The position numbers and the translations under genes were made by a program. Below are positions 4,226 through 44,329 of a DNA stretch of 64,000 nt, one piece after another (the first letter of the stretch is position 1; every line of letters starts with the position of its first letter). The notes under the pieces were generated by a model, which made no database searches, was not told the DNA's origin, and saw only the letters and a list, made by a program, of their open reading frames with translations. Source of the stretch: a virus; IMG/VR virus record IMGVR_UViG_3300016476_000584, positions 117 to 64,116 of that record. One strand, written 5' to 3'.

Positions 4226-4450
4226 ATGTATGTGCTGCTATACGTTGATAGCAACAACGAACCTGGCTATATTCAAGGAACCGTTGAGGAAATCAACACA
4301 CGATTGCGAACTCTCTGGATGAATGGCGACATTGACCGCGACGAATGGGAGTTTCGTTCTCCGTGGCAAATGCTTGGCATTGAGGATGGAGCCTTGACTC
4401 CGATTGAGCGCGTTGAGTGCTCGCATACTCCATACTTCGAGGTGCACTAA
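4226..4450 (+). CDS. small hypothetical protein
   Basis: Ribosome-binding site AAGGAGCGAATC; followed by a terminator hairpin at 4459-4487. Confidence 0.45.
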   Translation: MYVLLYVDSNNEPGYIQGTVEEINTRLRTLWMNGDIDRDEWEFRSPWQMLGIEDGALTPIERVECSHTPYFEVH

Positions 4451-4524
4451 CAAAAAACCCTGTATGTTCAAGGACATACAGGGCGGGCGCCTCGGACCCC
4501 AAACCATTGGAATCCTTAGCTTTT

Positions 4525-4893
4525 TCAATAGGCCAGATATTCAATCTTGACCACATCCTTGAGAGGAACGCCAGTATCCTCACACACGCCACGCACATGG
4601 TCGGCAACATCAAGCAGAGTTGCTGCCGACACAATCATATCAGAGCGATGGGCAAAGCAGACCCGCCACATGGTCTGAGAAATCTCAACAGCCTTGACGG
4701 TTGCTTTGGGCGGGACTACGCGGATTACCGCAACATTCCTACGCCCCATGCGTTCCCATTCAATAGGGTATTCTGCTTTCATAATGTCGCAGAAATCATT
4801 GAGAGCATCGGGCGCGGTGTCAGCGATAATCTCCAGGCTGATACTTTGGCCGCCTTGCGGACCGTATTCTCCGACAACTTCATATTTCGGCAT
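4525..4893 (-). CDS. hypothetical protein
   Basis: Starts MPKYEV... behind ribosome-binding site GGAGAC; convergent with the early block. Confidence 0.4.
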   Translation of the reverse strand: MPKYEVVGEYGPQGGQSISLEIIADTAPDALNDFCDIMKAEYPIEWERMGRRNVAVIRVVPPKATVKAVEISQTMWRVCFAHRSDMIVSAATLLDVADHVRGVCEDTGVPLKDVVKIEYLAY

Positions 4894-22852: not shown

Positions 22853-22908
22853 TATTTACTCCAATTGGGTTTATTTGGGTTTCTTAGCATTACGCTTTCT
22901 TAATCACA

Positions 22909-23059
22909 ATAGAGTTGTTCTCTACTGAGATGGATAGAGTATCACCGGGAACCCAACCAGTGACGTCTAATACTTCTTGTGGAATTACCATAAGACAGAG
23001 GTCTTCGTCGTCCTCAATGTCTTGGAATATTTCATCCACACTATATGTTCTTGTAATCA
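22909..23059 (-). CDS. small AbrB/MazE-like protein
   Basis: ~49-aa ORF (below the ORF-track cutoff): ...VLDVTGWVPGDTLSISVENNSIVIKK, a swapped-hairpin-like motif. Confidence 0.3.
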
Positions 23060-23261
23060 TCGTATCCTTAATGTATCATACATTGTTTGATAGCAGCAAG
23101 GTCAATCTTAAAATGTTCTGCTATCTCATGAGCAATACCCATACTTTTATCTATGAGATAAAGGTTAAGCTCTTTTTGCTGGTGAACATAAACCGCTAAA
23201 GAGCCGACAAACATTGCATAGCCCATGCGTATTCTCCTAAAAGCGGCCCGTTCTGTTTCTA

Positions 23262-23620
23262 GGTGGAGCCATACCCACTTAAATTAAGCTGCTAGAGCTA
23301 ATTTAACAGGTGCTACGTTGTCGTTTGCACTTATAATTGTCTTGCGGTTATCAGTCGCTTGCTCACTGGCTCCTGGTTTCCTCATGCTCAACATGTCGAA
23401 TCCCTTTCGGCCCCATCAGAGATACACTGTTATCCTTCTATCGCCGACCACGAGCACCGCAGCATTACCTGTAAAGTCGTGACACGTCTAACCAGCGAAC
23501 GTATCTGTAACAGCCATTCCATATAGCCAGCGTACCCGCTATAGGTCTGAGCCAGTGTATCCGTGGTGGAGCCGCCGGTATCGAAACCGGGTCCATGCTG
23601 CATCCGATTTACGTAATCAG
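23262..23620 (-). ncRNA. ssrA: circularly permuted (two-piece) tmRNA gene
   Basis: Minus strand. Acceptor piece GGACCCGGTTTCGATACCGG-CGGCTCC-A-CCA at ~23573-23605. After a ~150-nt intervening hairpin, the coding piece starts GGGGCCGAAAGGGATTCGAC (~23418). Tag ORF GCA AAC GAC AAC GTA GCA CCT GTT AAA TTA GCT CTA GCA GCT TAA encodes ANDNVAPVKLALAA. The GGGGCCG/CGGCUCC acceptor helix has a G3.U70 wobble. Confidence 0.8.
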
Positions 23621-25651
23621 AGCTTAATCTTTGTGTGGTTAGGCATCTAACAGACGATCTTAATGGGTATTGCTTGCGAGTATCTAGCCAGGACTAAAAA
23701 GCTGTGACTAAAACCTATTACTCTCAAAAGACGCAAGCGCAGGGTTTCTGGTTTATGCCTACTACTATAAACCCTTTTTCGTTTCCACACGAGGCAGAAC
23801 ACTTATACTACATGGGCGACCCCAAGTTGGTCGGGCAAGGTCCAAATCTTCTGGTTATCAGCCAGCCGTATTGTCGTAGGTCGTCAAACCTAACAGCCCT
23901 AGTTCATTTCATGAACGGTCAGTTGACGCTAACCTGTTCACTAGCCTGCAATTCTGCCATCTCTGTTTTTGCAGCGAGGCGTTGTTTCTTTAAATCTTGC
24001 AGCAGCGCTTTGTGCTCAGCACTACGATTATGTTCCCGTTCAGCTTCTAGCTGCTCTACTTGAGCATCGAGCTCACGATGGCGTTTGGCTAGCCATTCAA
24101 TTCGAGTCATAAGTTTATCCTTTCTACTGTAATTCTAAACAGAAGAGGATCTCTGTTCCTCATTAACTGCTGGACATCTTTGTCCAAATCCCTAGTATAA
24201 ATCTCAACAACACTACCACCAACTTCGTGTGGTTGATTAGTTTGCGTGTTGATTAACGTTACTCGATACATTATACTATACCCGATTCGGACACAACATG
24301 CAAATTATTTTTTAAATCAAAAATCTGTGCATCGGGCCAAACTTGAAGTAGTTCTTGTGCGCTCTTAATAGAATCGTAGGCCACTGTGACCACACTAGAA
24401 TTGGCATAGTTATCATTACTAGCTTCAAAAACTACATGACGTACTAGTTCACCGTTACGACGAATTGCATATCTGCTCAACCTTTTTCTCCTATATCTGC
24501 ATTAACAATTGCGTTGTGCAGAGTCATATAACCGCAGTCCATACCGCGCATATACATAGACCCATCAAAACCAAATACATCATATAGAATGTATCGGTAA
24601 GTTCCTTGGTCTATGATTTCGCCTTTATAGATGCGCTTTACTACAGCGTAAAACGCATCTTCACGTTCTTGTTCAGTAAGCCCGTTCCACCAAGCATCAT
24701 TCTTGGCCTCATAAGAGGCCTGTTCTTTTTGCTGTTCTTGACCTAGCTCGGCTAGAACGTCTAATAGATTTTTAGTAGACTCGTCCATCATCAATCCCAA
24801 AGCCCTTGATAGTATTTTCCAAATAGTCTAAAGCCATTCTGAATACGAGCAGCATAGGCTTTTTGCCCGTCCCAGTCGATTTTGTAGTCGGAACTCTCAT
24901 CTCTAACCATTTCAGAGGTTCCATCTTCGCTAATCTTCTTAAAACGAAAATTAGGCTCACCGCTTCTAAACTGGTCTTCCCAATCTTGCAGCATTCCTGC
25001 CTTAGTCTCAAAGGCGTGAATCATTTCATCTAGAACCCAATCCCAACGAGCGAAGTGATGCTCATCCGGTGCGTACACATTCTTTTCTTCAGCAGTAAGA
25101 GGGCGAGCTGCCGTGCTACGAAGATGCTCTGGAACATCCTCATCATCTACACTAGGAGCGCCGTGCTTATTTTCCTTAAGCTGTTTGAGCATAGGAAGAA
25201 TGATGTACGCTAGAGTGTTGTCCATAGACCAAGTATCCCAGCGGTCAATACGAACTTTAATCTTACGCTCTTTGAACTTATCCAACCACAGAAGAAAGCG
25301 ATAGAGTAGAGTGTTAGGACGCTCGTCAAGCATATCATACAACTCTCCTACCTCCGGTTCTGGGGCAATGCTTCCATGAGCCAACCACTCACCAAATCTG
25401 TGTACTCGGTCGGCAGTATGTGGAAATCCATACTCATCACGTTCTTTAGGGACCCAGAACATCAACTTTTCTGCAAGTTGATAAGGTCCAAACCAGCTTT
25501 TATAAGGGCCGATATATACTTTCATTTCCCACCTGTTAAGATTGTGTAGACTATGTATACTACACTCATATAAAATCCAGCAAAGATAGCCAGCAAGGCT
25601 ATCGCTACTATTACAGATACAATCATACTCATAAATCAGCCCTTTGTCAAT

Positions 25652-26227
25652 TTAAATCTTAATGTAATCTACTGGGCCACCTACTGTAGTACAAAACTCT
25701 CCTGCTGCACGGATAGAGTTAACTACAGCTTTCTCTGGTGTTGCTTGTACACGGCTGAAAGCAAACAGCGCTCCCATAGCGAACTCTTGACCGCTACCAA
25801 CAGCCGTATAACCACAACGAGGCTCTAGAATTGAGAAATCTTCTTGTACGTGGAACAAACGACCACGAATGGCAACGAGGAAATTACCGCCACTTTTAGT
25901 TCCTTCTTTGGTTTTGGCAAACGAGTGTTCATCAAAACACTTGATTAGTTCTGGAATAAAATCTTTGACCAGATACTGGTTCTCATCTTCGTCGATTTCA
26001 ATAGGTGGCGGTGTGAAATGATAACGAAGAATGTCGCCCATTCGATAAGAAGTGGTGTAACCGATACCAACATTAATCTTAGTTAGACTGAGGTCTTTCT
26101 TCTCAAACACTTCCAAAGTAACTAGCTTTGGAGTGGTGTATACCTGCTTAACACCGTTGCCCGAACCTAGGGAATCAGCTCCAATATACACAGCCTCAGT
26201 AGCAATCAAACCTACAATACAAGTCAC
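25652..26227 (-). CDS. Ntn-hydrolase / HslV-proteasome beta-like protein
   Basis: N-terminus MTCIVGLIATEAVYIGADS...GSG resembles HslV (TTIV...GDGQ). Confidence 0.35.
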   Translation of the reverse strand: MTCIVGLIATEAVYIGADSLGSGNGVKQVYTTPKLVTLEVFEKKDLSLTKINVGIGYTTSYRMGDILRYHFTPPPIEIDEDENQYLVKDFIPELIKCFDEHSFAKTKEGTKSGGNFLVAIRGRLFHVQEDFSILEPRCGYTAVGSGQEFAMGALFAFSRVQATPEKAVVNSIRAAGEFCTTVGGPVDYIKI

Positions 26228-42167: not shown

Positions 42168-43604
42168 TCATGCAGCGAATGCATAACGTTCATCCATCAG
42201 AGTCTTCAGCATTACATTGTAAGGCGTGAAGTCTTCAAGATCGTTTGCCAGAACGCTCTTCATGATTGCAGGGCTGAAACCCGACACATGTGCAGTACCG
42301 CGGCTGTCGAACTGAACAGGTACGTTGCCGTAACCAGAGTTCAGGTTCCAGAACACGATCTTTGGCATAGCATAGCCAGCCTGCTCGTACTTGCGAGCAA
42401 TCATGTCCAGAGCACGGTCGTCATAGCGAGCGCAGTGGTCAAACTGCATATCGCTAAGGATCAGAAGGATACGAGGCATATCCTCAGGTGCAGCATTACC
42501 ATTTACGGCAACTTGCAGAATCTGATCGAAAGCAGCGTGTAGGTTAGTATTCATTTCCCAATGAGCAGTGCTCATGGTACGAATACGGTCACTCAGAGAG
42601 CCAGTCAGCTTTACCATAGTCGGACGACCAGAGAAAGTCTGGAACAGGTCTTTGAAAGGACCAGTGTTCTTGGAGCTAAGGTATAGACCTAGAGCAACTG
42701 CAACTTCGATTGGCTGTACGTGGCCAGGACGAGAGTAGCTAAGGCTACCCATCGAACCGGAAACGTCAACCATTGGGAAGACCATTGCATCGCCAACGTA
42801 GTTTGGAAGAGCATTCCACTGTTCGTTGGCTACCGCAGCGTTACCGTTAGCGACGCTTTTTACAACGTCATGAGGATAAACTGCGCTTGCGTTGATTTTG
42901 ACCTTAGGGTCACGCTCAGCCTGTGGCTTTTTCAGCTCCTGAATATAACGAGTATACGCTTCAGATGCGTTACGGCCAAAGGCTTTTTGGTAGCGAGCGG
43001 ATGCAACGCTAGGAACGTGAGAGAAATTAATCTCATTCCAAGTCTTAGCACACATCTGAGTCTCAACAACCTGAGTCAGACCAACGATTAGCTTACGATA
43101 AGCCTTAGGTGATAGGCCAAGAAACTTGGTCAGCTCTACAGCTACAGAGCCTTTGCGAGGCATCCACTTAGCGCACAGACCGTTCTGGTCACGAAGAGCT
43201 TGACCAATCATCTCAAACGCCGCAAGACGGTTTACGTGGTCAGTGTATACGAACAGGTCGTCCCAACGACCAAGCTCTGGAACCTTGTGCATGATGCGAC
43301 CAGCAAGGCTAGGATTAGCCTTTTCTAGTGCAGCTAGCAGATTACGGAAAGTCTGGCGCTCACCAGCACCGCCGCGAATATCACGAGCCCAAAGTAGAGT
43401 GCGAACGGCAAGTTCTTCGTTCTCGCCGATAGCAGCCATGAAATGCTGTGACACATCTTTGCCACGAGCCGAGCCAATCATACCAAAAAGGTCCAGTACC
43501 GCGCTAGAAGTGGTAGCGTGTGCACGCATACCGTTAGCGGTACGAGGAGTGAGGCTGTCATTTAGGACTGCGTTAGCAAAAGTGTTCATTTTATTTCCTT
43601 TCAA
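42168..43604 (-). CDS. vWA-domain protein, Ro60/TROVE-like
   Basis: 478 aa; MIDAS motif VDVSGSM in the C-terminal half; N-terminal helical region; Ro60/Rsr-like architecture. Confidence 0.4.
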   Translation of the reverse strand: MKGNKMNTFANAVLNDSLTPRTANGMRAHATTSSAVLDLFGMIGSARGKDVSQHFMAAIGENEELAVRTLLWARDIRGGAGERQTFRNLLAALEKANPSLAGRIMHKVPELGRWDDLFVYTDHVNRLAAFEMIGQALRDQNGLCAKWMPRKGSVAVELTKFLGLSPKAYRKLIVGLTQVVETQMCAKTWNEINFSHVPSVASARYQKAFGRNASEAYTRYIQELKKPQAERDPKVKINASAVYPHDVVKSVANGNAAVANEQWNALPNYVGDAMVFPMVDVSGSMGSLSYSRPGHVQPIEVAVALGLYLSSKNTGPFKDLFQTFSGRPTMVKLTGSLSDRIRTMSTAHWEMNTNLHAAFDQILQVAVNGNAAPEDMPRILLILSDMQFDHCARYDDRALDMIARKYEQAGYAMPKIVFWNLNSGYGNVPVQFDSRGTAHVSGFSPAIMKSVLANDLEDFTPYNVMLKTLMDERYAFAA

Positions 43605-44212: not shown

Positions 44213-44329
44213 TGGTGCCCCCGTCTGGATTCGAACCAGAAACCTCTGCATTATCGTTGCAAAATTAATGGCTGTACGGATACACGACTGTATCCCTTTT
44301 AAGCGCTCTAACCATTGAGCTACAGGGGC
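44213..44329 (-). tRNA. atypical 117-nt tRNA-like gene with a ~41-nt insertion
   Basis: Acceptor GCCCCTG/CGGGGGC, a normal D-arm and T-arm (TCTGG-TTCGAAT-CCAGA) and CCA. Putative anticodon arm TTGCA-ACGATAA-TGCAG (GAU). A 41-nt insert containing hairpin GGATACA-GTCG-TGTATCC lies between the D-arm and anticodon arm. Confidence 0.4.

What the first reader, a model, noticed from the sequence alone, without database searches (positions are those of the whole stretch)
23262..23620. Phage-encoded circularly permuted (two-piece) tmRNA with an alphaproteobacterial-style tag
On the minus strand the gene is in permuted order. The tRNA-like acceptor piece (T-arm CCGG-TTTCGAT-ACCGG, acceptor 3' strand CGGCUCC, discriminator A, CCA) lies upstream of the coding piece. 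The coding piece begins with the 5' acceptor strand GGGGCCG followed by the conserved GGAUUCGAC. The helix GGGGCCG/CGGCUCC keeps the G3.U70 alanine identity pair. The tag ORF reads ANDNVAPVKLALAA*, ending in the canonical ALAA. A ~150-nt segment between the pieces folds on GATACACTG/CAGTGTATC, like the excised loop of two-piece tmRNA precursors. Permuted ssrA is typical of alphaproteobacteria, some betaproteobacteria and marine cyanobacteria. A phage copy with a proteobacterial AND... tag is unusual and suggests the host lineage.
Basis: partly seen in the sequence, partly recalled or inferred. Interest (0 to 1): 0.85.

Follow-up and report, generated by a model that had tools for sequence, protein, structure and literature searches.

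The report
Two-piece tmRNA gene in a phage
An uncultivated large phage really does carry a complete, circularly permuted (two-piece) tmRNA gene of the alphaproteobacterial type, but phage copies of this gene are already documented, so this is a well-supported new member of a known kind and not a surprise.

Summary
ARAGORN calls a permuted tmRNA with tag ANDNVAPVKLALAA*. Rfam tmRNA_permuted scores 99.9 bits (threshold 47) and alpha_tmRNA 60.6 bits (threshold 50). Across 22 homologous phage genes the acceptor helix is always paired, G3·U70 is invariant, and positions 4-7 covary. The T-stem, the stem closing the intervening segment and a 3' pseudoknot also covary.

The locus is identical or 99.9% identical in independent metagenome assemblies and sits between phage genes, next to about 29 tRNA genes.

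The claim of rarity does not hold. Buchholz et al. 2022 reported 53 two-piece forms among 133 unique phage tmRNAs, and here the same 3' signature is found on 117 IMG/VR viral contigs. The host inference is weak, because phage Melnitz carries an alpha-type ssrA yet infects a non-alphaproteobacterium.

Three things go beyond the literature I read:
- The signature is absent from 185,579 bacterial and archaeal species genomes, so this is a phage-restricted lineage.
- The tRNA-like core and the P2/tag module recombine.
- The closest relative has an endonuclease-like ORF inserted in the locus.

No SmpB was found in the window. Function is inferred, not shown.

The parts
23627..23671 (-). Conserved 5' leader upstream of the acceptor piece, containing the hairpin GUUAGAUGCCUAAC (23651-23638). 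It could be a promoter, a processed leader, or part of the mature acceptor piece. The true 5' end is unknown.
   Evidence: 95.6% identical to L006 where the coding flanks are about 82%. Nearly invariant in the window, L006 and L010. Occurs once in the window. The alpha_tmRNA model extends to 23667. No sigma-70-like site was found on this strand.
23564..23624 (-). Acceptor piece:
- Outer P2 strand AGCUC, 23624-23620
- Local hairpin GAUU-ACGUA-AAUC
- P2a strand CAGCAUG, 23600-23594
- GAC
- T-arm, 23590-23575
- Acceptor 3' strand CGGCUCC, 23574-23568
- Discriminator A plus encoded CCA, 23567-23564
   Evidence: T-stem and acceptor helix are 100% paired with covariation across 22 phage homologues.
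23415..23563 (-). Intervening segment of 149 nt, predicted to be excised. It is closed by a 10-bp stem, 23562-23553 with 23429-23420, followed by the leader UCUGAU before G1.
   Evidence: The closing stem is 96.7% paired and all 9 counted pairs have double changes. The interior is unrelated between close relatives and no more stable than shuffles. No Rfam family matches it.
23242..23414 (-). Coding piece:
- Acceptor 5' strand GGGGCCG, 23414-23408
- D-loop analogue AAAGGGAUUCGAC, 23407-23395
- P2a strand CAUGUUG, 23395-23389
- Outer P2 strand GGAGC, 23373-23369
- Hairpin CAGU...ACUG, 23368-23352
- Tag ORF and 3' pseudoknot (listed separately)
23284..23328 (-). Tag reading frame. Resume codon GCA at 23328-23326, 14 codons encoding ANDNVAPVKLALAA, stop UAA at 23286-23284. 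The stop lies in the 3' strand of helix 5 (23306-23298 paired with 23287-23279).
   Evidence: ARAGORN (where it reports 'Tag not identified'). The identical tag occurs in L003 and L010, with one synonymous GCA to GCC change in L003. Helix 5 was read by eye, with covarying partners in L104, L118 and L138.
23245..23277 (-). 3' H-type pseudoknot. S1 is UGGGU (23277-23273) with ACCUA (23264-23260). S2 is GGCUC (23270-23266) with GGGCC (23249-23245). The loop is GAAACAGAAC. This is the signature of the phage lineage.
   Evidence: S1 is 90% and S2 95% paired across 22 sequences. The signature occurs on 117 viral contigs and in 0 of 185,579 species genomes.

Best explanation
This is an intact ssrA gene in circularly permuted order, carried by an uncultivated and probably jumbo phage.

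**Shown by sequence and comparison**
- One transcription unit on the minus strand encodes, in this order: the acceptor piece, a 149-nt spacer closed by a conserved stem, and the coding piece.
- The acceptor piece holds the P2 3' strands, the T-arm, the acceptor 3' strand and an encoded CCA.
- The coding piece holds the acceptor 5' strand, the D-loop analogue, the P2 5' strands, the tag ORF, helix 5 and a 3' pseudoknot.
- The two pieces can pair through a 7-bp acceptor helix with G3·U70 and through P2.

**Inferred from established tmRNA biology**
- RNase P cuts 5' of G1 (23414).
- 3' processing trims back to the encoded CCA (23564), which releases the spacer.
- The base-paired two-piece RNA is charged with alanine by host AlaRS through G3·U70.
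- It binds host SmpB and EF-Tu and enters ribosomes stalled on broken mRNAs.
- It switches translation to the tag frame, which adds ANDNVAPVKLALAA and frees the ribosome. The ...ALAA end would direct the tagged protein to ClpXP-type proteolysis.

**Inferred benefit to the phage.** Ribosome-rescue capacity is kept up or raised while host mRNA is being destroyed. This fits the roughly 29 tRNA genes in the same window.

**Origin.** The gene belongs to a phage-restricted lineage of alpha-type two-piece tmRNAs that recombines between phages.
For: - **Detection:** ARAGORN permuted tmRNA. RF04321 99.9 bits against a threshold of 47, and RF01849 60.6 bits against 50.
- **Covariation:** in 22 phage homologues 91.9% of cells are paired against 76.4% when shuffled. 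The covariation score is 0.461 against 0.170 (0 of 500 shuffles reach it). Slid controls reach at most 54%. The acceptor helix and T-stem are 100% paired, and G3·U70 is present in 22 of 22.
- **Family scale:** 17 different acceptor 5' strands occur among 69 unique family members. Only genes with a fully paired helix and G3·U70 were counted as complete.
- **Tag frame:** conserved, with a synonymous change in L003.
- **Population:** the locus is 100% identical in L209 and 99.9% in L213, from independent assemblies.
- **Phage context:** dNMP kinase, endolysins, primase, dUTPase, NAMPT and about 29 tRNAs. Relatives lie on 291-342 kb contigs.
- **Precedent:** the annotated SsrA of phage Melnitz has the same architecture, closing stem included.
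- **Phage-restricted lineage:** 117 viral contigs against 0 bacterial genomes for the same 27-nt signature.
Against: - There are no expression or processing data.
- No SmpB was found in the window or in the fetched relatives.
- The alpha-specific model scores only 60.6 bits. Its middle P2 helix is deleted or non-canonical, and about 43 nt after the stop codon are missing.
- The T-arm is one nucleotide shorter than canonical.
- No sigma-70-like promoter lies on the gene's strand.
- The host is unknown, so compatibility with its SmpB, AlaRS and proteases cannot be judged.
Confidence: 0.85

Rival explanations
1. It is a phage-directed tagging device rather than a simple rescue helper. The phage tmRNA out-competes the host tmRNA so that stalled products receive a phage-specific tag. 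That tag is either read by phage-encoded proteases or escapes the host adaptor SspB, which would give the phage control over what is degraded.
For: - The tag is not among ARAGORN's known tags.
- No bacterial genome encodes the ANDNxAPxxxALAA pattern.
- Tags are very diverse within the phage lineage.
- An HslV-like peptidase lies 2 kb upstream at 25652-26227 (the Pfam Proteasome match is below threshold).
- Relatives of the clade encode ClpP.
Against: - The tag keeps the generic ANDN...ALAA features that host ClpXP-type systems recognise, which argues against a private code.
- The link to the peptidase rests on proximity alone.
- The tmRNA is present near the neighbour gene in only about 10% of clade members.
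Confidence: 0.12
2. It is a decoy that inhibits host trans-translation by titrating SmpB or AlaRS, like the tRNA-like-domain-only RNA of mycobacteriophage DS6A.
For: - A precedent is cited in PMC4131195 and PMC11915505.
- The T-arm is unusual at 16 nt.
- The fit to the alpha model is weak.
Against: - A complete tag ORF, resume context, helix 5 and 3' pseudoknot are conserved and covary. A decoy would need none of these.
- The same 16-nt T-arm core is 100% conserved in five loci with different contexts.
Confidence: 0.05
3. It is a non-functional passenger: a host ssrA copy or an attachment-site remnant picked up by imprecise prophage excision, or bacterial DNA mis-assembled into a phage contig.
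For: - ssrA is a common integration site for temperate elements (PMC4383910, PMC9004378).
- One ORF at 3287-3712 matches a PHROG named 'recombination directionality factor'.
Against: - Both pieces are complete and covary.
- No bacterial genome has the signature.
- Contigs from independent assemblies are identical.
- Phage genes lie on both sides, and no integrase appeared among the 49 window ORFs (40 against PHROGs, 18 against Pfam) that were screened.
- The locus is syntenic in L006 and L010.
Confidence: 0.02

Closest known systems
SsrA of Methylophilales phage Melnitz and the related pelagimyophages HTVC008M and Mosig (Buchholz et al. 2022, PMC9004378; MZ577097 45984-46436)
   Same: - Phage-encoded, alpha-type, permuted gene order.
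- The spacer is closed by a stem directly after CCA and ends ...UAUGAU|GGGG.
- ANDN... tag ending in ALAA.
- AAACAGAA pseudoknot loop.
   Different: - Melnitz has a near-consensus sigma-70 promoter abutting the gene and, according to the paper, a glutamine riboswitch in its 3' domain. The window has neither.
- The tag, P2/PK1 and the exact pseudoknot sequence differ.
- Melnitz is a 141-kb member of the Kyanoviridae, whereas the window belongs to a different clade with relatives up to 342 kb.
Unannotated ssrA of Sinorhizobium jumbo phage Phosso (PV764938, about 349.5-350.2 kb). A tmRNA is also reported in Sinorhizobium jumbo phage AP-J-162 (PMC11242549).
   Same: - The only cultured-phage DNA hit for the window's tmRNA.
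- Same 3' pseudoknot signature, ANDN tag and permuted order, scoring 113 and 108 bits.
   Different: - 410-nt intervening segment.
- Alpha-type GGCGGUA T-loop.
- Tag ANDNVSTKVALAA (read from the sequence; listed).
- Soil rhizobial host.
Bacterial two-piece tmRNA of Alphaproteobacteria (Caulobacter crescentus prototype; Rfam RF01849)
   Same: - Permuted gene and a two-piece tRNA-like domain with G3·U70.
- ANDN-type tag.
- Single 3' pseudoknot with an ...AACAGAA... loop.
   Different: - Only 60.6 bits to RF01849.
- The middle P2 helix is missing.
- UUCGA-type 16-nt T-arm instead of the GGCGGUA loop.
- Much longer spacer.
- The signature is absent from all 185,579 species genomes searched.
One-piece phage tmRNAs (mycobacteriophage Bxz1 group, Bacillus phage G) and the tRNA-like-domain-only RNA of phage DS6A (PMC4131195)
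   Same: A phage-borne component of the trans-translation system.
   Different: Those are standard one-piece genes, or lack a tag altogether. This one is permuted and complete.

Membership tests
Permuted (two-piece) tmRNA, Rfam RF04321 / alpha_tmRNA RF01849 | Covariance-model score above the curated gathering threshold | tested here: met
   RF04321 99.9 bits (threshold 47). RF01849 60.6 bits (threshold 50).
Permuted (two-piece) tmRNA, Rfam RF04321 / alpha_tmRNA RF01849 | Permuted gene order: T-arm, acceptor 3' strand and CCA lie upstream of the acceptor 5' strand, D-analogue and tag ORF | tested here: met
   Direct reading of the sequence and ARAGORN's 'Permuted' call.
Permuted (two-piece) tmRNA, Rfam RF04321 / alpha_tmRNA RF01849 | 7-bp acceptor helix formed between the two pieces, with the G3·U70 alanine identity pair, supported by covariation | tested here: met
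   100% of cells paired. G·U in 22 of 22. Double changes at pairs 4-7. 17 helix variants in the family.
Permuted (two-piece) tmRNA, Rfam RF04321 / alpha_tmRNA RF01849 | Canonical T-arm (5-bp stem, 7-nt loop) | tested here: inconclusive
   The stem covaries and always pairs. In the window, L002, L003, L004 and L005 the arm is 16 nt, read as 5 bp with a 6-nt loop or 4 bp with an 8-nt loop. The UUCGA motif is kept.
Permuted (two-piece) tmRNA, Rfam RF04321 / alpha_tmRNA RF01849 | Tag reading frame that starts at a GCA resume codon, ends in a hydrophobic ...LAA, and has its stop codon in helix 5 | tested here: met
   ANDNVAPVKLALAA*. Helix 5 at 23306-23298 with 23287-23279 was read by eye, with covarying homologues.
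Permuted (two-piece) tmRNA, Rfam RF04321 / alpha_tmRNA RF01849 | Alpha-specific extended P2 (middle 7-bp helix) and GGCGGUA T-loop | tested here: not met
   The middle helix is deleted or non-canonical in both model alignments. The T-loop is of the UUCGA type. Close relatives L010 and L007 do have the alpha T-loop.
Permuted (two-piece) tmRNA, Rfam RF04321 / alpha_tmRNA RF01849 | The precursor is cleaved into two mature RNAs that stay base-paired | not testable with these tools
   No RNA data. The only support is the conserved, covarying closing stem and the UUUGAU leader before G1.
Permuted (two-piece) tmRNA, Rfam RF04321 / alpha_tmRNA RF01849 | Works with SmpB and is charged by AlaRS | not testable with these tools
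   No SmpB homologue in the window or loci by tblastn. A host supply is assumed.
Phage-encoded alpha-type two-piece tmRNA (Melnitz / pelagimyophage type, PMC9004378) | Located in a phage genome | tested here: met
   Phage genes on both sides. Syntenic in IMG/VR viral contigs.
Phage-encoded alpha-type two-piece tmRNA (Melnitz / pelagimyophage type, PMC9004378) | Associated glutamine (glnA) riboswitch in the 3' domain | tested here: not met
   No Rfam family other than the tmRNA models at E<=1 in 22900-24000. According to the paper this is not a defining feature of the group.
ssrA attachment-site fragment left by a temperate element | Only the 3' part of ssrA is present, next to an integrase | tested here: not met
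   Both pieces are complete. No integrase among the ORFs screened.

The most novel reading that the evidence does not exclude
These phage tmRNAs are not occasional host captures. They form an autonomous, phage-restricted gene lineage that spreads and diversifies among unrelated large phages by exchange of modules, the tRNA-like core on one side and the P2/PK1/tag module on the other. Homing-type endonucleases may drive that exchange. The private, fast-evolving tags may then be read by phage-encoded proteases (HslV-like here, ClpP in relatives), which would make this a phage-controlled protein-tagging system rather than simple ribosome rescue.
Probability: 0.15. Interest if true: 0.6.

Novelty: new member of a known kind. 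Interest (0 to 1): 0.3.

Why it matters

The wider value lies in the comparative results:
- A 27-nt pseudoknot signature separates a large phage-borne lineage (117 viral contigs) from all 185,579 bacterial and archaeal species genomes searched.
- Two short contigs binned into Verrucomicrobiales and Saprospiraceae MAGs encode the same tag pattern on permuted tmRNAs. They are probably mis-binned phage DNA, so permuted tmRNAs in phyla that lack permuted ssrA may help flag contaminated bins.
- The lineage shows modular recombination inside a structured RNA gene.
- tmRNA type is a poor host predictor for such phages.

If phage tags turn out to be read by phage proteases, that would be a new layer of host takeover.

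Tried and rejected
- **Close relatives in GenBank phages:** megablast of 20 kb around the locus found nothing.
- **First 3'-motif scans:** The loosened pattern returned mostly chance hits and was truncated at 120 loci, so it was filtered with ARAGORN.
- **ARAGORN sensitivity:** it missed the L006 and L007 genes that Rfam found. My regex scan missed L010 and L060. The roughly 10% frequency in the clade is therefore approximate.
- **Riboswitch or other RNA family in or near the gene:** none.
- **Special fold of the spacer interior:** none, z = -0.59.
- **Sigma-70 promoter or terminator on the gene's strand:** none.
- **Leader motif as a repeated phage promoter:** it occurs only once.
- **SmpB in the window or loci:** none.
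- **Host from the tag:** there is no genuine bacterial match.
- **Host from PstS homologues:** all the top hits are unnamed metagenomic or phage proteins.
- **Environment from accession numbers:** no paper mentions them.
- **Pfam on the L006 inserted ORF:** no family at E<=0.01 (the first attempt, used coordinates off by one base). 'HNH-like' therefore rests only on the CxxC...HH...CANCH...H motif read by eye.
- **Founding two-piece tmRNA papers:** PMC16621 and PMC516066 are not held. Statements about processing rest on PMC11915505, PMC9004378 and general knowledge.

Full report

Yes. The minus strand of 23680-23200 reads, in order:
- outer P2 strand AGCUC, 23624-23620
- P2a strand CAGCAUG, 23600-23594
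- GAC
- T-arm CCGGUUUCGAUACCGG, 23590-23575
- acceptor 3' strand CGGCUCC, 23574-23568
- ACCA, 23567-23564
- a 149-nt spacer, 23563-23415
- GGGGCCG, 23414-23408
- AAAGGGAUUCGAC, 23407-23395
- P2 5' strands and a hairpin
- the resume codon GCA at 23328, with 14 codons giving ANDNVAPVKLALAA and UAA at 23286-23284
- a 3' pseudoknot ending at 23245

ARAGORN calls a permuted tmRNA with exactly this tag. Rfam's tmRNA_permuted model gives 99.9 bits (threshold 47, E=3e-18) and alpha_tmRNA gives 60.6 bits (threshold 50).

The T-arm is 16 nt, one less than canonical.

**2. Is it more than chance, and does it covary?**

I collected homologues from IMG/VR in two ways: by an exact 20-mer, and through a neighbouring gene with more than 597 relatives. 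A 3' motif scan added more. A trimmed alignment of 22 distinct phage genes (A1) was scored against a structure derived from the window.

| Measure | Result |
|---|---|
| Cells paired | 91.9%, against 76.4% in shuffles |
| Covariation score | 0.461 against 0.170 (0 of 500 shuffles reach it) |
| Slid controls | at most 54% paired |
| Acceptor helix | 100% paired; G3·U70 in 22 of 22; pairs 4-7 show CG/GC/AU/UA exchanges |
| T-stem | 100% paired; all five pairs have double changes |
| Closing stem of the spacer | 96.7% paired; all nine pairs have double changes |
| 3' pseudoknot stems | 90% and 95% paired |

The closest relative, L006, is about 82% identical and collinear. It has GGGGGUA/UACCUCC where the window has GGGGCCG/CGGCUCC, which is three consecutive compensatory pairs with G3·U70 kept.

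**3. Is it really in a phage, and is the assembly sound?**

The window encodes:
- dNMP kinase, two endolysins, a primase fragment and dUTPase
- NAMPT and an NMNAT-Nudix protein
- a PstS-like protein, an SPFH protein, an HslV-like peptidase and a Ro/TROVE-like protein
- an HNH endonuclease and a Ser/Thr kinase
- 28-30 tRNA genes, all on the minus strand

.

There is no near match in GenBank phages. Relatives of the neighbouring gene and of PstS lie on viral contigs of 251-342 kb, so this is probably a fragment of a jumbo phage.

The window's PstS is 100% identical on 23 contigs from NCBI, ENA, JGI and Logan assemblies. An ENA contig is 100% identical over 18,963 nt, tmRNA included. An NCBI contig that is 98.3% identical overall is 99.9% identical across the tmRNA region. 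Chimerism and contamination are excluded.

**4. Anatomy and likely mechanism**

*Shown.* The two strands of the acceptor helix, P2, the T-arm, the tag frame, helix 5 enclosing the stop codon, and a 3' H-type pseudoknot are all present and conserved.

*Spacer.* Its interior is unrelated even between phages whose tmRNA is otherwise 96-100% identical, such as the window and L003. It folds no better than shuffles and matches no RNA family. Its ends, however, always form a stem that starts 1-3 nt after CCA and ends about 5 nt before G1, with the conserved leader UUUGAU|GGGG. The annotated SsrA of phage Melnitz has the same arrangement.

*Inferred from established tmRNA biology (PMC11915505, PMC9004378).* RNase P cuts at G1. 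3' trimming stops at the encoded CCA. The spacer is discarded. The paired two-piece RNA is alanylated through G3·U70 and works with host SmpB to rescue stalled ribosomes and add the tag.

*Not found.* No SmpB gene is in the window or the fetched loci. No promoter is recognisable on the gene's strand.

*Upstream region.* L020, L085 and Melnitz have TTGACA-16/17-TATAxx promoters abutting the acceptor piece (read by eye). The window instead has an almost invariant upstream region of about 135 nt, shared with L006 and L010. Its role is unknown.

**5. Comparison with what is known**

- Phage tmRNAs have been known since the Bxz1-type mycobacteriophages and phage G (PMC4131195).
- tmRNAs and SmpB are reported in huge phages (PMC7162821).
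- The 2025 tmRNA database lists 79 phage sequences (PMC11915505).
- Buchholz et al. 2022 (PMC9004378) describe an alpha-type two-piece ssrA in phage Melnitz. They counted 53 two-piece forms among 133 unique phage tmRNAs, 50 of them from marine or aquatic phages.
- Sinorhizobium jumbo phage AP-J-162 is reported to have a tmRNA (PMC11242549). I found an unannotated permuted one in its relative Phosso.

The kind is therefore known, and the window holds a new, rather divergent member.

Melnitz infects OM43 yet carries an alpha-type gene, and clade relatives L060 and L085 carry beta-type genes.

**6. What goes beyond the literature I could read**

(a) *A phage-restricted lineage.* The signature GGGTATGGNNNCCACCTNGAAACAGAA occurs on 117 IMG/VR contigs and in none of 185,579 species-representative bacterial and archaeal genomes. 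The tag pattern ANDNxAPxxxALAA hit only two short contigs, binned into Verrucomicrobiales and Saprospiraceae MAGs. One of them shares a protein with the window, and both are most likely mis-binned phage DNA.

(b) *Diversity within the lineage.* There are 69 unique complete genes, 17 acceptor variants, spacers of 2-492 nt and very diverse ANDN... tags.

(c) *Module exchange.*

| Compared with the window | tRNA-like core (T-arm, acceptor strands, D-analogue) | P2 / PK1 | Tag |
|---|---|---|---|
| L002, L005 | 100% identical | 28-36% identical | different |
| L010 | 74-80% identical (alpha-type GGCGGUA core) | 90-91% identical | identical |
| L007 | 70-74% identical (alpha-type GGCGGUA core) | 78-79% identical | different (73% identical) |

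L020, L107 and L136 combine the other P2/PK1 module with the alpha-type core. All four combinations therefore exist, which is a four-gamete signature of recombination.

(d) *An inserted ORF in L006.* In L006 the divergent block sits immediately downstream of an inserted 208-aa ORF with a CxxC...HH...CANCH...H motif. This suggests homing-endonuclease-driven conversion, but Pfam gave no hit, so it remains a lead.

**7. Verdict**

- The finding is real and the identification is correct.
- The claim of rarity and the host inference are overstated.
- Novelty: a new member of a known kind.
- Interest is modest, at 0.3. The phage-restricted, recombining lineage raises it slightly, and that lineage would merit a focused comparative study.

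Noticed in passing
L006:7912-8538 (IMGVR_UViG_3300037189_005847), corresponding to window ~23627: The closest relative has a 208-aa ORF with a CxxC...EFHHVDP...CANCHREIH motif inserted between the conserved leader and the acceptor piece. Directly downstream, the acceptor piece, spacer (only 14 nt) and acceptor 5' strand are replaced by a divergent version with tag ANENSAPVKLALVA. It looks like a free-standing homing endonuclease with a co-conversion tract. There is no Pfam hit.
   Followed up: partly
window 44216-44329 (-), next to 42168-43604 (-): A 114-nt tRNA-like RNA scores 49 bits against the tRNA model and was not called by ARAGORN. Its acceptor, D and T arms are intact, but 54 nt forming two hairpins replace the anticodon arm (fold z = -4.27). 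It lies just upstream of a Ro/TROVE-like RNA-binding protein gene (DUF2828/DUF7788, phrog_850). This is the architecture of YrlA-type Y RNAs, although the YrlA model itself does not hit it.
   Followed up: partly
window 25652-26227 (-); L217-L219 5753-6370: An HslV-family peptidase homologue (phrog_1040, E=1.4e-21; Pfam Proteasome below threshold) lies 2 kb upstream of the tmRNA. Jumbo-phage relatives encode ClpP. A link between phage proteases and phage tags is possible but untested.
   Followed up: no
window 23674-23740 and 23741-23830 (-): The non-coding region upstream of the tmRNA is nearly invariant in the window, L006 and L010. The window alone has a 67-nt insertion bounded by inverted termini GCTTGCG...CGCAAGC. 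Its function is unknown; it could be a promoter, a leader or a small mobile hairpin.
   Followed up: partly
window 23575-23590 (-); also L002, L003, L004, L005: The T-arm is 16 nt (CCGGU-UUCGAU-ACCGG), one nucleotide short of the canonical 17. It always occurs together with the D-analogue AAAGGGAUUCGAC. This core is 100% conserved in five loci but is a minority form, 4 of 69 in the family.
   Followed up: partly
L085:~4400-4590; L208 (Melnitz) ~935-1075: Some phage tmRNA spacers contain a small ORF with a Shine-Dalgarno sequence. L085 has 49 aa starting MKYKIVVKIYDKTF.... Melnitz has GGAGAA-N6-ATG. No such ORF exists in the window's spacer.
   Followed up: no
L206 (NYWG01000240.1, Verrucomicrobiales MAG) and L207 (CAXGOB010000088.1, Saprospiraceae MAG): Alpha-type permuted tmRNAs with tags ANDNFAPVDYALAA and ANDNVAPSGYALAA lie on short contigs binned into phyla that do not have permuted ssrA. 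L206 shares a protein with window 17.3-17.7 kb. These are probably mis-binned phage contigs.
   Followed up: partly
L001 908-1597 (Sinorhizobium phage Phosso PV764938, ~349.5-350.2 kb): A permuted tmRNA (113 bits) with a 410-nt intervening segment is not annotated in the GenBank record.
   Followed up: yes
window 57054-59128 (-): An HNH endonuclease gene (58592-59128, phrog_16726) sits beside two ORFs (57054-57611 and 58048-58614) that both match the same part of a DNA methyltransferase family (phrog_799). This could be a duplicated or split methyltransferase.
   Followed up: no
window 54143-54213 (-): ARAGORN calls a tRNA-Asn with the unusual anticodon ATT. Rfam gives only a partial match of 41.7 bits.
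   Followed up: no
window 22890-23060 (-) and 23919-24110 (-): The small ORFs flanking the tmRNA are a MazE/AbrB-like 56-aa protein (PF04014, 25.7 bits) and a DUF465 63-aa protein.
   Followed up: no
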